The notes beneath the pieces were generated by a model. The model had not been told where the DNA came from and did no database searches. It saw nothing but the letters and a program-made list of their open reading frames with translations. Positions 15,995 to 19,791 of a stretch of DNA of 64,000 bases are shown piece by piece. Made by a program: the position numbers and the translations under genes. The stretch's first letter is position 1, and every line of letters begins with the position of its first letter. Source of the DNA: Sulfuritalea sp. (GTDB taxonomy: Bacteria > Pseudomonadota > Gammaproteobacteria > Burkholderiales > Rhodocyclaceae); contig JBIKLV010000010.1 in the NCBI GenBank assembly GCA_044359585.1, positions 3,319 through 67,318 on the forward strand. Reading direction: 5' to 3'.

Positions 15995-16897
15995 CTATGC
16001 AGGTTTCTCGAACGACTCCGCCAGGGCGCGCGCCTCGGCTACCAGCGCGGCGACCATCGGCGGTTGCGGCTCGCGCGCCAGGGTGACGAGACCCGTGGCC
16101 CAATCGACCGCCGGCTCGACCAGTTCAATGGCGATCACGCCGGGCGGCGTGCCGACCTGTTCCAGCACCGCGCGCGGCACGATCGAGGACCAGTGGCCCG
16201 AGCCGACATGGGCGAGGATGCTGACGATGGAGTTGGTCTCCAGCATCGCCGTAACGTCAGCGCCGACTCTTGAAAACACCGCGTCGATGGTCTTGCGGTT
16301 CTGCATGTCGGGCGTCAGCAGGGCCAGCGGGGCGGTAGCGGCCTCGGCCCAGCTCACGCTCTCGCGCCCGGCGAAACGTCCGCTGGCACCTGTCAGCAGC
16401 ACATGGCGTTCGTGCCAGATCGGCACGATGTCCAGCCCGGCCGCTGCGGCAGATTCGACATAGATGATGCCGGCATCGAGCTCGAAGCGGCGCAGGCGCG
16501 CGAGGATTTCGTCGGTCGCCAGCGACAGCACCTCGGCCGTGACATGGGCATGGCGCCGGGCGAAGGACGAGGTCAGCGCCGCCACCACGGTCAAGGCCGT
16601 GGGGATCACCCCGAGGCGCAGGCGACCCGCAAGGCCATCGCGCAGGCTGGCCAGTTCCTGCTTGAGGCCCTCGGCGCTGGCGGCCATGCGCTGGGCGTAT
16701 TCGACCACGCTGCGGCCTTCCGGCGTCAGGCCGGCGAACTGCTTGCCGCGTTCGACCACGGCCACACCGAGTTCCGTTTCGAGGTCGCGGATCGCCGCCG
16801 ACAGGGTCGAGGGCGAGACATGACAGGCCACTGCGGCGCGGCCGAAATGCTTCTCGCGCGCCAAGGCAATCAGGTAGAGGTATTTGCGCGAGATCAC
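15995..16897 (-). CDS. LysR-family transcriptional regulator (probable fds regulator)
   Basis: N-terminal HTH (HFGRAAVACHVSPSTLS), GTG start, directly upstream of fdsG. Confidence 0.92.
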   Translation of the reverse strand: MISRKYLYLIALAREKHFGRAAVACHVSPSTLSAAIRDLETELGVAVVERGKQFAGLTPEGRSVVEYAQRMAASAEGLKQELASLRDGLAGRLRLGVIPTALTVVAALTSSFARRHAHVTAEVLSLATDEILARLRRFELDAGIIYVESAAAAGLDIVPIWHERHVLLTGASGRFAGRESVSWAEAATAPLALLTPDMQNRKTIDAVFSRVGADVTAMLETNSIVSILAHVGSGHWSSIVPRAVLEQVGTPPGVIAIELVEPAVDWATGLVTLAREPQPPMVAALVAEARALAESFEKPA

Positions 16898-17610
16898 TGC
16901 TTCGCCGCCGCTGCAGCGCGCCGCGCCTCGGCGGCCGCCTTTTCCGCCTCGCGGTACTTGCGCTGTGTCTCGTAGTCGCGCTCGCGCTGTTCGATCTCCT
17001 GCACCTTCTCCGCATGCTTGCGTTTGCGCTCGGCGGCCTTGCGCGCATTCTCCGGCCCTGCGGCCGCACGCCGGGCTTCTTCGCGGCTGCGCTCCTCGGC
17101 CTTGCGCTGCCTGGCGGCACGCTCTTCGGCCGCCTTGGCGCGCCGGCTTTCCAGCTTGGACTGCGCCTCGGCCTGGCGGCGCTCACGCTCGGCGGTGCGC
17201 GCGCCCTCCTCCTCGCGATGGCGCTCCACCCGGCCCTGGTTGCCGGCCGCTTCCGCCGGCGCGGCGGCGGCGCGCTGCGCCTCTCTGTCCGCCACCTTGG
17301 CCTGACGCGCCTCGCGCTCGACGCGATAGCTTTCCTTGCGAATCGCCTCCGCTTCGGCCCCCGCCGCGGCGCGGCGCTCCTTTGCCGCCGTCATGCAACC
17401 GATGGCCACCATGCGCGTGCTGCAATCGGCCTTGTCTTCCAGGTAGCGACGTTCGGCGGCATCGCGGATCGCCTTGGCGCGCGCCCGTTCGGCCACGGCG
17501 TTCTCCACCGTGATGGTCGGCGCCGGCACAACGGCCTGCGCCCACAGGCCAGCCGGGGCCAGCAGCATCGGCAGGAGAGACATTGCGAAGAAAAATCGGG
17601 GTCGTATCAC
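16894..17610 (-). CDS. Exported Ala/Glu/Arg-rich coiled-coil protein with a Cys pair
   Basis: Signal peptide ..GLWA-Q, C-x7-C, long charged helix; start GTG 17610 or ATG 17583; stop overlaps LysR start. Confidence 0.75.
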   Translation of the reverse strand: MIRPRFFFAMSLLPMLLAPAGLWAQAVVPAPTITVENAVAERARAKAIRDAAERRYLEDKADCSTRMVAIGCMTAAKERRAAAGAEAEAIRKESYRVEREARQAKVADREAQRAAAAPAEAAGNQGRVERHREEEGARTAERERRQAEAQSKLESRRAKAAEERAARQRKAEERSREEARRAAAGPENARKAAERKRKHAEKVQEIEQRERDYETQRKYREAEKAAAEARRAAAAAKQ

Positions 17611-17659
17611 GGAACGCAGCTTAGCGTGAAATACGGCGTCGGAGCGCGGTGTGCTATCG

Positions 17660-18172
17660 AGCGCAGCGAGCCAATCAGGAACCCCCCGCGAGGGGGCGAG
17701 GCGGGAATTCGCGACGCATGCGTCGCGCCGCCGCAGCCGGCTGGCTGTGCAAAGCCAGCCGTGGGCCGCGCAGCGGGAAGGGGGGCGGGCGTTGCAGAAG
17801 GGCTGGCATTCATGATGCGGGGTAATGTTTCCCGCATCATGAATGCCAGCCGGTTCGACACGCGTTTGCCATGCCCGGACCACGATGGATTCGGGCTAAC
17901 GCTCATGGCAGCAAGAGCCATGCGCTGATGATGAAACACGCGAAAACGAAGTTTCAGTGGAGGCTAACGCCGGCGTCATCGGCGTTAAGCGCAGCGGCCG
18001 TAACTAAAGGCGAATTGAAGGCCCGCCCCCTTCCCCCCTCGCGGGGGGGTTACCAATCGGCGCGCTATGCGCGTAAGTCTCACGGGGCTCAAACAAGGTG
18101 CTTCACGTTAAACTCCAAAAGAAAAACACGAGGAGCCCGGCGTCGGACCCACCGATGCCGGGTCGCTGCGCT
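17660..18172. other. Large structured intergenic element with nested inverted repeats (ncRNA-, leader- or MITE-like)
   Basis: Perfect 21-bp hairpin 17801-17851; long-range IRs 17660-17669/18163-18172, ~17680-17696/18034-18051, 17775-17790/18021-18035; several local hairpins. Confidence 0.55.
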
Positions 18173-18195
18173 ACCCCCGCTTCGAGGAAAGCAAC

Positions 18196-19791
18196 GTGAG
18201 CGAAGTCATCATCATCGGCGGCGGCATCGCCGGCATCTGCGCCGCACTGGAACTGCTCGACGCCGGGCGCAAGGTGCTCCTGCTCGACCGCGACCGGGCC
18301 GAGAATTTCGGCGGCCTGGCCAGGGAAAGCTTCGGCGGCATCTTCCTCGTCGGCACGCAAGAACAGCGTCGCGCCGGCATCCGCGACACGCCGCAACTGG
18401 CACTGACCGACTGGCGCGCCTTCGGCGAACTCGATCCGGCCGACCGCTGGCCCAATGCCTGGGCCGAGGCCTACACGCATCGCTGCCACGACGACGTCGG
18501 CCTCTGGCTGCGCGCGCGCGGCGTCGGTTTCGTGCCGGCGCCGCACTGGGTCGAACGCGGCCTGTACACCCCCGGCAATTCGGTACCTCGCTTCCACATC
18601 GTCTGGGGCACTGGGCGCCAACTGGCGCTGCGCCTGATCGCCACCCTGGAAAGCCATCCGCGCAGGGCCAATCTGGAGATCCGCTTCGGCCAGCGCGTCG
18701 AGGACTTGCTGACCGGCAACGACACCGTCACCGGCTGCCGCGGCGTCGGCGAGGACGACGGCAAGCCCTTCGAACTCACTGCGGGCTGCGTGATCGTCGC
18801 CGCAGGCGGCTTCAACGGCAACATCGAACGCGTGCGCCGGCACTGGCACCGCGACTGGAAGACGCCGCCGCCGGTGATCCTCAACGGCTCGCACCGCTAC
18901 GCCGACGGCCGCCTGCACGACGCGGTGAGCGCGGCGGGCGGCCATCTCACCCATCTCGACGCGATGTGGAACTACGCCGCCGGCGTGCATCACCCGCAGC
19001 CGCGCAAGCCCGGACACGGGCTTTCCATCGTGCCGCCGCGCTCCGCACTTTGGCTCGACTGGCGCGGCCGGCGCATCGGGCCGATGCCGCTGGTGACGGG
19101 CTTCGACACGCGCGACCTGGTGGCGCAGGTCTGCGCCACTGAGCGCCAGTACTCCTGGCAGCTGATGAACAAGGCCATCGCCATCAAGGAACTCGCCGTC
19201 TCCGGCGCCGAGCACAACCCGTCGATTCGCGACATGAAGAAGCTCGCCTTCCTGCGCGACCTGCTGTTCGGCAACAAGTGGCTCTACGAGGAAATGACCA
19301 GCCGCTGCGAGGACTTCGTGGTCGGCCGCGACCTGGCGGAACTGGTCGCGAAGATGAACGCCCTGCAGGGCGACGATGCCGTGAGCCTCGACGAGATCCG
19401 CGCCGCGACCGAAAGCTACGACGCGCAGATCGATCGCGGCCAGACCTTCCACAACGACGAGCAACTGCGCCGCATCGCCTATGTGCGCCACTGGAAAGGC
19501 GACCGCCTGCGCACCTGCAAGTTCCAGAAGATCCTCGACCCGAAGGCCGGGCCGCTGCTCGCCGTGCGCGAGTTCATCATCAGCCGCAAGAGCCTGGGCG
19601 GCATCCAGACCGACCTGCAGTGCCGCGTGCTCGACGCCGGCGGCCAGCCGATCCCCGGCCTCTACGCGGCGGGCGAGGCCGCCGGCTTCGGCGGCGGCGG
19701 CATGCACGGCCTGCGCGCGCTGGAAGGCAGCTTCCTCGGCGGCTGCATCCTCAGCGGGCGGCTGGCCGGCCAGGCCGCCGCATCCGCATGA
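18196..19791 (+). CDS. FAD-binding dehydrogenase (COG3573 / KsdD-like flavoprotein)
   Basis: GGGIAG dinucleotide fold, GGLARESFGG, GLYAAGEAAGFGGGG. Confidence 0.9.
   Translation: MSEVIIIGGGIAGICAALELLDAGRKVLLLDRDRAENFGGLARESFGGIFLVGTQEQRRAGIRDTPQLALTDWRAFGELDPADRWPNAWAEAYTHRCHDDVGLWLRARGVGFVPAPHWVERGLYTPGNSVPRFHIVWGTGRQLALRLIATLESHPRRANLEIRFGQRVEDLLTGNDTVTGCRGVGEDDGKPFELTAGCVIVAAGGFNGNIERVRRHWHRDWKTPPPVILNGSHRYADGRLHDAVSAAGGHLTHLDAMWNYAAGVHHPQPRKPGHGLSIVPPRSALWLDWRGRRIGPMPLVTGFDTRDLVAQVCATERQYSWQLMNKAIAIKELAVSGAEHNPSIRDMKKLAFLRDLLFGNKWLYEEMTSRCEDFVVGRDLAELVAKMNALQGDDAVSLDEIRAATESYDAQIDRGQTFHNDEQLRRIAYVRHWKGDRLRTCKFQKILDPKAGPLLAVREFIISRKSLGGIQTDLQCRVLDAGGQPIPGLYAAGEAAGFGGGGMHGLRALEGSFLGGCILSGRLAGQAAASA

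What the first reader, a model, noticed from the sequence alone, without database searches (positions are those of the whole stretch)
17660..18172. ~510-nt intergenic element folding into nested long-range helices
Seen: outer IR AGCGCAGCGA/TCGCTGCGCT (17660-17669/18163-18172); second IR AACCCCCCGCGAGGGGG/CCCCCTCGCGGGGGGGTT (~17680-17696/18034-18051); inner IR GGGAAGGGGGGCGGGC/GCCCGCCCCCTTCCC (17775-17790/18021-18035). Inside are a 16-nt palindrome (17711-17726), an 8-bp hairpin (17739-17760), a perfect 21-bp hairpin (17801-17851) and further hairpins near 17874-17896, 17901-17925, 17931-17957 and 17963-17990. GGCTAACGC occurs twice and GCGCAGCG three times. No credible ORF lies here. Inference: a large structured ncRNA, a regulatory leader, or a MITE-like non-autonomous element; I cannot match it to a family I know.
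Basis: partly seen in the sequence, partly recalled or inferred. Interest (0 to 1): 0.68.

Follow-up and report, generated by a model that had tools for sequence, protein, structure and literature searches.

The report
Two nested small mobile repeats
The "510-nt structured element" is not one RNA: two copies of a roughly 155-nt Sulfuritalea repeat landed head-to-head in a once 174-nt spacer, which is why it folds so well; it is an ordinary kind of selfish DNA with an unusual liking for stop codons.

Summary
It is not one element.

- **Empty sites.** The same intergenic spacer is only about 174 nt in the two closest relatives. The window carries two extra blocks: 17621-17848 on the minus strand and 17896-18111 on the plus strand. 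About 47 nt of ancestral DNA lies between them.
- **One repeat family.** Both blocks are copies of a roughly 155-nt dispersed repeat. It has about 118 copies in this genome and occurs in all 24 genus relatives tested. It is essentially absent from the 16 other families of the order that were tested.
- **Nested modules.** Each copy holds a further small palindromic module (78 nt and about 64 nt). Both modules also occur on their own elsewhere in the genome.
- **Source of the helices.** The "long-range helices" are the two inverted copies pairing with each other. The outermost repeat pairs a repeat motif with ancestral unique DNA and is fortuitous.
- **How the family behaves.** It has almost no terminal inverted repeats. 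It is bounded by TAA on both sides, consistent with a TA or TAA target duplication. It often sits on a stop codon (22 of 64 copies) and runs in the sense direction of genes (35 against 7).
- **Not found.** No Rfam match, no partner transposase and no paper on these repeats. RNA data could not be consulted.

Verdict: a new member of a known kind, MITE-like mosaic repeats.

The parts
16894..17583 (-). Flanking gene: 229-aa Ala/Arg/Glu/Lys-rich protein with a hydrophobic N-terminus. Start ATG at 17583. No Pfam match.
   Evidence: Orthologues sit next to the FAD gene in relatives.
17584..17620 (.). Ancestral leader and spacer of the minus-strand gene, present in relatives that lack the insertions.
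   Evidence: Aligns to L009, L010 and L043. No other copy in the genome.
17621..17848 (-). Insertion 1: a minus-oriented copy of the dispersed repeat. TTA at 17621-17623 is the reverse complement of the TAA at the element's 3' end. Absent from L009 and L010. Present in L043, but without the nested module.
   Evidence: Empty-site alignment. nhmmer match of profile positions 59-158 to 17710-17621. About 55 genomic copies of its core.
17697..17774 (-). Nested 78-nt double-hairpin module inside insertion 1. It holds the 18-nt palindrome 17710-17727 and the hairpin 17739-17760. It is missing from the orthologous copy in L043. It occurs alone elsewhere (C55, C31, C129).
17794..17851 (-). Variant 5' arm of insertion 1: the perfect 21-bp hairpin 17801-17821 / 17831-17851. 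It is a rare sub-type with 4 copies in the genome. The two arms co-vary between loci.
17849..17895 (.). Ancestral unique spacer between the two insertions. It is conserved in relatives with empty sites. Its left edge is ambiguous by 3-4 nt (AGCC).
17896..18111 (+). Insertion 2: a plus-oriented copy of the same repeat, 216 nt. It is bounded by TAA at 17897-17899 and 18109-18111. The empty site in L009, L010 and L043 reads GGGC-TAA-ACTCC.
   Evidence: nhmmer matches profile positions 1-55 to 17896-17949 and 47-158 to 18005-18111.
17946..18005 (+). Nested module of about 64 nt inside insertion 2, with the hairpin TAACGCCG/CGGCGTTA at 17965-17987. It has about 16 copies in the genome, some alone and one tandem pair. 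Its boundaries are ambiguous by about 8 nt.
18026..18048 (+). Core G/C hairpin of insertion 2 (CCCCCC-TCGC-GGGGGG). Its mirror image in insertion 1 lies at 17682-17704.
   Evidence: Core hairpin pairs are kept in 95% of cells across 64 copies.
18112..18195 (+). Ancestral leader of the FAD oxidoreductase gene. It holds the right arm of the 'outer IR' (18160-18172). That arm is also present in relatives that lack any left arm.
18196..19791 (+). Flanking gene: a 531-aa FAD-dependent oxidoreductase (FAD_binding_2).

Best explanation
The region is a pile-up of small non-autonomous mobile repeats.

**Shown: order of events.** A divergent intergenic spacer of about 174 nt received a copy of a ~155-nt Sulfuritalea repeat in the minus direction. 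That copy then received a 78-nt palindromic module inside it. Last, a second copy, already carrying a ~64-nt module, landed in the plus direction 47 nt away.

**Shown: why it folds.** The two copies are inverted relative to each other. Their C-rich and G-rich cores and their core hairpins are therefore complementary, which produces the apparent nested long-range helices and the extreme folding energy on both strands.

**Inferred from empty and filled sites: how the family moves.** The elements insert at a TA or TAA, most often C-TAA, and duplicate it. As a result many copies sit exactly on the stop codon of one gene and a few bases ahead of the next start codon. Copies survive mainly in the sense orientation of the surrounding genes.

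**Not identified.** The enzyme that moves them is unknown. The target type points to an IS5- or IS630-like DDE transposase acting in trans.

**Local effect.** Both copies here lie in the leaders of the flanking genes, 38 and 85 nt from the starts, each with its 3' tail towards its gene. They probably act as neutral or mildly modulating passengers of those leaders.

**What the confidence covers.** The figure applies to the decomposition into two insertions of one repeat family. The insertion mechanism on its own is about 0.6.
For: - **Repeat content.** Window 17657-18112 is covered by 15-60 other genomic matches per base. 17857-17895 and 18113-18195 are unique.
- **Empty sites.** L009 and L010 (97% and 95% identical FAD protein) have a 174-nt spacer that lacks both blocks. 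L043 has block 1 without the 78-nt module and lacks block 2.
- **One family.** A profile built from 22 copies finds 138 hits, which chain to 118 copies, 64 of them full length. Size classes are about 155, 216, 229 and 280 nt, set by the optional modules.
- **Distribution.** Present in 24 of 24 same-genus genomes. Only 2 weak hits in 16 other families of the order.
- **Target.** TAA is present once in empty sites and on both sides of filled sites at three loci.
- **Stop codons.** 22 of 64 copies use their 5' TAA or TGA as the stop codon of the upstream gene. TAA stops number 446, against about 7,286 non-genic TAA/TTA sites.
- **Position.** About 35 copies end 0-18 nt before a start codon.
- **Orientation.** Flanking gene pairs are (+,+) 35 against (-,-) 7, p = 1.5e-5.
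- **Other.** No Rfam match.
Against: - No autonomous copy and no transposase flanked by the same ends was found. Searches covered Y1_Tnp, DDE_3 and DDE_Tnp_1 across 41 genus genomes.
- Terminal inverted repeats are only 5-6 nt (TTAACG/CGTTAA), so the element is not a canonical MITE.
- The data cannot separate a true target duplication from a TAA carried by the element's own end, nor a 2-nt from a 3-nt duplication.
- Local hairpins keep pairing through compensatory changes. Some selection on structure, in DNA or RNA, is therefore possible.
- Gene calls for the context statistics came from my own crude GC3-based caller.
Confidence: 0.9

Rival explanations
1. The whole 17660-18172 stretch is a single large structured non-coding RNA or a regulatory leader of the FAD oxidoreductase gene, closed by the nested long-range helices.
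For: Very low folding energy on both strands. The stretch is intergenic and lies upstream of two genes.
Against: - Absent from the orthologous spacer of the closest relatives, and only partly present in a third.
- Splits into pieces that each recur 15-60 times elsewhere in the genome.
- The outer helix pairs a repeat motif with ancestral unique DNA.
- Folds equally well on both strands, as DNA palindromes do.
- No Rfam family matches.
Confidence: 0.03
2. The repeats are REP/BIME-type palindromic units, or IS200/IS605-derived palindrome-associated elements. In this reading a HUH Y1 transposase (a RAYT or TnpA) moves them as single-stranded DNA. The element inserts 3' of a TAA target without duplicating it, and the right-hand TAA belongs to the element.
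For: - No real terminal inverted repeats.
- Small hairpins lie near both ends.
- TAA is in a fixed orientation relative to the element at both ends.
- The architecture is mosaic, with nested palindromic modules.
- Y1_Tnp genes exist in 27 of 41 genomes of the genus.
Against: - This genome, 99.98% complete, has no Y1_Tnp match yet carries about 118 copies.
- Genus genomes G001, G004, G005, G009, G012, G013 and G016 also lack Y1_Tnp although each carries the repeat.
- None of 12 Y1 loci is flanked by the repeat.
- In the complete genome G002 the copies show no strand pattern along the chromosome, although its origin was not located.
- At the C109 locus the left end reads TAA and the right end TAG, over an ancestral TAG-type stop. 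That fits a TA duplication better.
Confidence: 0.12
3. The repeats are retained because they work at the RNA level in operons, as stabilisers, processing sites, or donors of stop codons and ribosome-binding sites. In that case the copies here are functional parts of the two leaders and not passengers.
For: - Strong sense-orientation bias, 35 against 7.
- 8 of the 11 copies whose 5' triplet is TGA instead of TAA use it as the stop codon of the upstream gene.
- The copy between def and fmt has AAGGAG 11 nt before the fmt start, where the family consensus has ACGAGTTG.
- Hairpins are kept by compensatory changes.
Against: - Presence or absence is polymorphic at each of the three loci examined, with no sign that the gene needs the element.
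- The orientation bias can also come from purging harmful antisense copies, or from an asymmetric C-TAA target that coincides with stop codons.
- Only two local hairpins and one short long-range pairing are conserved across 64 copies.
- There are no expression data.
Confidence: 0.2

Closest known systems
ERIC (enterobacterial repetitive intergenic consensus) elements
   Same: Both are repeats of about 125-155 nt with tens to hundreds of copies per genome. Both lie in transcribed intergenic regions of operons. Both have larger variants made by internal insertions. Orientation-dependent effects on mRNA are reported for ERIC, which is classed with MITEs (PMC10969869, PMC3184786; the TA duplication of ERIC is from my own knowledge).
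   Different: No sequence similarity was seen. ERIC is an imperfect palindrome whose long terminal repeats pair end to end. The Sulfuritalea element has only a 5-6-nt terminal match and several separate local hairpins. The host group differs too: Betaproteobacteria (Rhodocyclales) here, Enterobacteria and Vibrios for ERIC.
Correia elements (CREE/NEMIS) of Neisseria
   Same: Both occur in betaproteobacterial hosts, with over 100 copies, about 100-200 nt long. Both sit immediately upstream of genes. Neither has a known dedicated transposase. Correia elements can be co-transcribed and affect expression (PMC10969869). The TA target duplication of Correia is from my own knowledge.
   Different: Correia elements have about 26-bp terminal inverted repeats, an IHF site and defined promoters. 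None of these was found here: there were 0 promoter-like sites in the region and only 5-6-nt termini.
BOX elements of Streptococcus pneumoniae and BIMEs of E. coli (mosaic repeats)
   Same: Both show modular, mosaic construction. Here a fixed 5' arm and 3' tail enclose optional internal modules, one of which occurs as a tandem pair elsewhere (C78). BOX is built as boxA-boxB(n)-boxC (PMC3049150).
   Different: The sequences and hosts are unrelated. The optional modules here also occur as free-standing repeats. The whole unit shows empty/filled-site polymorphism with a TA(A) duplication.
IS5-family insertion sequences (YTAR targets) and their MITEs
   Same: The target context is C/T-TA-A/G. A resident IS5-type element in the genus (9 copies in G002) has the ends GGAAACGCTGAATAAG with CTAG/TTAG duplications. 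These ends share the short motifs AACGCT and TTCA(G)CGTT with the ends of the repeat.
   Different: The IS5-type element duplicates 4 nt, while the repeat duplicates at most 3. The fourth base does not match between the two sides across copies. The outermost GG(A) of the IS ends is missing from the repeat. Similarity is limited to 6-8 nt, so this is a lead and not a demonstrated partner.

Membership tests
Canonical MITE | Small (50-800 bp), non-coding, multi-copy | tested here: met
   Size classes of 155-280 nt. 118 chained copies, 64 of them full length. No ORF.
Canonical MITE | Terminal inverted repeats of at least 10-15 bp (definition as in PMC11602168) | tested here: not met
   The ends read (Y)TAACGCTCATGG... 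and ...GTTTCACGTTAA. Only TTAACG/CGTTAA, 5-6 nt including the TAA, are complementary.
Canonical MITE | Target-site duplication flanking the element | tested here: inconclusive
   TAA occurs once in empty sites and twice around filled sites at three loci. The data fit a TA or a TAA duplication. They equally fit a single target TAA plus a TAA carried by the element.
Canonical MITE | A related autonomous IS with the same ends | tested here: not met
   No long element is bounded by the two ends in G000. The Y1_Tnp, DDE_3 and DDE_Tnp_1 loci of 41 genus genomes are not flanked by the repeat. G000 has no contig under 2.5 kb, so IS copies may be missing from the assembly.
REP / REPIN with RAYT | A RAYT (Y1 transposase) gene in the genome, itself flanked by the repeat | tested here: not met
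   G000 has no PF01797 match. 12 Y1 loci from relatives gave no profile hit to the repeat.
REP / REPIN with RAYT | A 20-40-nt imperfect palindrome as the basic unit, often in inverted pairs | tested here: not met
   The basic unit is about 155 nt, with fixed and non-palindromic 5' and 3' ends. Only its nested modules are REP-like double hairpins.
IS200/IS605-derived palindrome-associated element | Orientation tied to the replication strand | tested here: inconclusive
   The 43 matches in the complete genome G002 show roughly equal + and - on both halves of the chromosome. The origin was not located.
Known structured RNA (Rfam) | Match to a curated covariance model | tested here: not met
   The best hits reach 21 bits, far below the gathering scores (E 0.06-0.9), and are to microRNA or sRNA models.
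Conserved cis-regulatory leader | Present at the orthologous position upstream of the same gene in relatives | tested here: not met
   The spacer is about 174 nt without the blocks in L009 and L010. Most other Sulfuritalea loci have spacers of 175-350 nt.

The most novel reading that the evidence does not exclude
The family may be a previously undescribed type of bacterial 'operon-junction' repeat.

- It nearly lacks terminal inverted repeats and seeks C-TAA, in practice TAA stop codons.
- It is kept almost only in the sense direction.
- After insertion it supplies the stop codon of the upstream gene.
- In some lineages it supplies a Shine-Dalgarno sequence for the downstream gene, as at def-fmt.
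- It would be moved by an enzyme outside the usual MITE-transposase pairings.
Probability: 0.2. Interest if true: 0.6.

Novelty: new member of a known kind. Interest (0 to 1): 0.33.

Why it matters
**For annotation.**
- About 118 loci in this genome, and similar numbers across Sulfuritalea, contain these repeats.
- The repeats mimic structured RNAs and create false ORFs.
- They shift apparent gene starts. For example, the ORF 16894-17883 overruns the true start at 17583.

**For biology.**
- The family gives a clean natural series of empty, once-filled and twice-filled sites in an abundant group of freshwater and groundwater denitrifiers.
- That series is useful as a strain marker.
- It is also a test case for how a GC-rich genome tolerates 150-230-nt insertions placed exactly between a stop codon and the next start codon, including in the def-fmt operon.

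If the stop-codon preference and sense bias reflect function and not filtering, the family would add a new example of repeats shaping operon expression.

Tried and rejected
1. **Single ncRNA or leader.** Rejected by the empty sites and the copy number and by the Rfam scan.
2. **Autonomous copy in G000.** I paired left and right end motifs up to 3 kb apart. The only long pair (1,583 nt) encloses flagellar genes and is spurious.
3. **RAYT / IS200 partner.** There is none in G000, and the Y1 loci of relatives are not flanked by the repeat.
4. **IS630 (DDE_3) partner.** There is none in G000 or in the complete genome G002, and 30 loci are not flanked.
5. **DDE_Tnp_1 partners.**
   - An IS5-type element (TIR GGAAACGCTGAATAAG, 4-nt CTAG/TTAG duplication) shares only 6-8-nt motifs with the repeat's ends.
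   - An apparent pair of ends in L244 lies inside an ISAs1-like ORF and is spurious.
6. **Replication-strand bias in G002.** No pattern was seen.
7. **Whole-element consensus RNA fold.**
   - RNAalifold returned only the core hairpin on the plus strand, and on the minus strand that hairpin enclosed by a few further pairs.
   - Single-sequence folds agree only on a terminal 4-bp helix, in 17 of 41 copies.
   - The column-pair scan found two local hairpins and one 5-bp long-range pairing.
8. **TA against TAA duplication at the C170 locus.** The spacer is too variable among relatives to decide.
10. **Literature and earlier notes.** No paper on Sulfuritalea repeats, and no earlier scan note on this sequence.

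Full report
**Observation**

The window between 17584 and 18195 is a divergent intergenic region. On its left is a minus-strand 229-aa gene (ATG at 17583). On its right is a plus-strand FAD_binding_2 oxidoreductase (GTG at 18196).

- outer IR, 17660-17672 / 18160-18172 (13 nt, 92%);
- second IR, 17682-17704 / 18026-18048 (23 nt, 87%);
- inner IR, 17772-17793 / 18018-18039 (22 nt, 82%);
- a perfect 21-bp hairpin, 17801-17821 / 17831-17851;
- the palindrome 17710-17727;
- the hairpin 17965-17987;
- the short direct repeats.

The 551 nt fold at -298.7 kcal/mol on the plus strand and -292.2 on the minus strand. That is z = -8.7 and -9.8 against dinucleotide shuffles. Rfam has nothing above noise.

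**The region is repeated DNA**

A search of the window's own genome (4.39 Mb, 191 contigs) returned 63 matches to pieces of the region. Per-base coverage from a sensitive BLASTN search gave the following:
- 17657-17705 and 18021-18066 each recur about 55 times;
- 17706-17764 and 17896-17945 each recur about 35 times;
- 17946-18005 recurs about 16 times;
- 17857-17895 and 18113-18195 are unique.

The left core (17657-17705) is the reverse complement of the right core (18006-18066).

**Empty sites**

The FAD gene identified the organism's relatives as Sulfuritalea (Rhodocyclales) metagenome-assembled genomes.
- In the two closest, L009 (97% protein identity) and L010 (95%), the same two genes are about 174 nt apart, against 612 nt here.
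- The alignment shows two clean extra blocks in the window, 17621-17848 and 17896-18111. They are separated by about 47 nt that all relatives share.
- L043 (95%) has the first block without its internal 78 nt (17697-17774) and lacks the second block.

So at least three successive insertion events are recorded among close relatives. That helix is fortuitous.

**One family**

Lining up all copies shows a single unit of about 152-157 nt with fixed ends:

5'-(C/T)TAACGCTCATGGCAGCGAGAGCCACCCGCCGAAGATGAAACACGCGAAAGGCGAATTGAAGGCCCGCCCC...CCCCCCTCGCGGGGGG...GGCTCGCTTCGCTCGACTATCACCAGTGGCTCCGAACGAGTTGTTTCACGTTAA-3'

- A profile of 22 copies finds 138 hits. These chain to 118 copies, 64 of them full length.
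- Size classes are about 155, 216, 229 and 280 nt.
- The larger classes carry a ~64-nt module between the 5' arm and the core, a 78-nt double-hairpin module inside the core, or both.
- Both modules also occur alone, and the 64-nt one occurs once as a tandem pair.

In the window:
- Insertion 2 (17896-18111, plus strand) is a 216-nt copy with the 64-nt module.
- Insertion 1 (17621-17848, minus strand) is a copy with the 78-nt module.
- The 5' arm of insertion 1 is a rare variant, with 4 copies in the genome, that forms the 21-bp hairpin.

The family is present in 24 of 24 same-genus genomes. It is practically absent from 16 other families of the order.

**How it inserts**

At insertion 2 the empty site reads GGGC-TAA-ACTCC. 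The filled site reads GGGC-TAA-CGCTC...CACGT-TAA-ACTCC.

Insertion 1, read on its own strand, lies at CCGGC-TAA-GCTGCG. Its 3' end keeps TAA, while its variant 5' end now reads TGG.

Between def and fmt (contig C72):
- The element sits in ...ACCTTC-TAA | element | TAA-ATGAAAATC.
- About 25 genus genomes have the empty junction (TAGATG, TAATG, TGATG or a 4-13-nt spacer).
- About 12 genomes are filled, with 150-, 214- or 310-nt inserts.

At a third locus (C109):
- Relatives have TAG, TAA or TGA stops.
- The filled site has TAA on the left and TAG on the right.
- A TA duplication over an ancestral TAG, with the element starting in A, explains this most simply.

The base before the TAA does not match between the two sides across copies, so a 4-nt duplication is excluded. 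Terminal inverted repeats are limited to TTAACG/CGTTAA.

**Context statistics**

These rest on my own GC3-based gene calls.
- Of 64 full-length copies, 22 use their 5' TAA as the stop codon of the upstream co-oriented gene.
  - Eight of those 22 have TGA in place of TAA. Eleven copies in all carry that variant.
  - TAA stops make up only about 446 of roughly 7,300 available non-genic TAA/TTA sites.
- About 35 copies end 0-18 nt before the next start codon. The flank often begins with the Shine-Dalgarno sequence.
- Flanking gene pairs are (+,+) 35, (-,+) 14, (-,-) 7 and (+,-) 6. The sense bias in tandem contexts has p = 1.5e-5.
- Both copies in the window follow the rule. Each has its 3' tail towards the gene it precedes, 38 nt from the minus-strand ATG and 85 nt from the FAD GTG.

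**Who moves it**

This is not resolved.
- G000 has no Y1_Tnp match. Twenty-seven of 41 genus genomes have one, but 12 such loci are not flanked by the repeat.
- DDE_3 (IS630-type) is absent from G000 and from the complete genome G002, and 30 loci are not flanked.
- DDE_Tnp_1 elements are common.
  - G002 has nine copies of an IS5-type element, with ends GGAAACGCTGAATAAG and CTAG/TTAG duplications.
  - Those ends share only AACGCT and TTCA(G)CGTT with the repeat's ends.
  - Other apparent matches were spurious.
- G000 has no contig shorter than 2.5 kb, so IS copies may simply be missing from the assembly.
- In G002 the 43 copies show no strand pattern along the chromosome.

**Structure**

Across 64 copies only three pairings are kept:
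- a 5'-arm hairpin (profile positions 11-14 / 22-25, 80% paired);
- the core hairpin (78-84 / 89-95, 95% paired, up to 3 pair types);
- a 5-bp pairing, 37-41 / 148-152.

Whole-element consensus folds are poor. Module hairpins and the 21-bp hairpin change on both arms together between loci. That is expected for palindromic repeats and does not show which strand, or which nucleic acid, matters.

**Comparison and verdict**

The closest known things are ERIC and Correia elements and the mosaic BOX/BIME repeats (PMC10969869, PMC3184786, PMC3049150). It works like them: a small, non-coding, multi-copy, intergenic passenger of operons. It fails the canonical MITE test on terminal repeats and on a partner IS. 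It fails the REP/RAYT test too.

No paper mentions repeats in Sulfuritalea. Earlier notes of this scan hold nothing on it.

I rate it a new member of a known kind. The stop-codon preference and the sense bias are the only unusual traits.

Noticed in passing
G000 contig C72:21964-22117 (locus L128), outside the window: A 154-nt copy sits exactly between the def stop codon (TAA) and the fmt start codon (TAA-ATG). In this lineage the element's tail reads CAAGGAGTTTCACGTTAA, which places AAGGAG 11 nt before the fmt ATG; the family consensus there is ACGAGTTG. The junction is empty in about 25 genus genomes and filled in about 12.
   Followed up: partly
Locus L139 (G016:C53, def-fmt junction): A different 310-nt insert occupies the same def-fmt junction. 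It begins TGACGTGAAACG, which looks like the reverse complement of the family's tail, and ends GGGTTAA-ATG. It may be a reversed or compound copy.
   Followed up: no
G000 contigs C111:4247-4305 and C47:130032-130098: Free-standing copies of the ~64-nt module begin ATGAAAACGAAGTTTCAG just after a Shine-Dalgarno-like GGAG. In C111 the usual internal TAA is lost, so the module reads in frame into a downstream ORF (MKTKFQSRLTSALS...). The module may have been taken up as an N-terminal extension.
   Followed up: no
window 17801-17851; C135:56338-56382; C127:34401-34607; L043: The two arms of the 21-bp hairpin differ between loci but always match each other: TAACTTT/AAAGTTA, TGGCTTT/AAAGCCA and TGGCATT/AATGCCA. 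This suggests repair templated by the hairpin, or strong selection for a perfect stem.
   Followed up: partly
window 16894-17583 (minus strand): The 229-aa protein is Ala/Arg/Glu/Lys-rich with a hydrophobic N-terminus and has no Pfam match. Only its first 65-94 residues align in most Sulfuritalea relatives. The longest ORF call (16894-17883) overruns into the repeat.
   Followed up: partly
G002:C1, nine sites (e.g. 144572-145081; locus L225): An IS5-type element encodes a 348-aa transposase and has the ends GGAAACGCTGAATAAG with CTAG/TTAG target duplications. It is present in nine copies in the complete genome and also in other genus members. Its ends share 6-8-nt motifs with the ends of the repeat.
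   Followed up: partly
G000, 64 full-length copies: Eleven copies have TGA instead of TAA at the 5' end, and eight of those serve as the stop codon of the upstream gene. The six copies with CAA never do. This suggests the stop function is maintained after insertion.
   Followed up: partly
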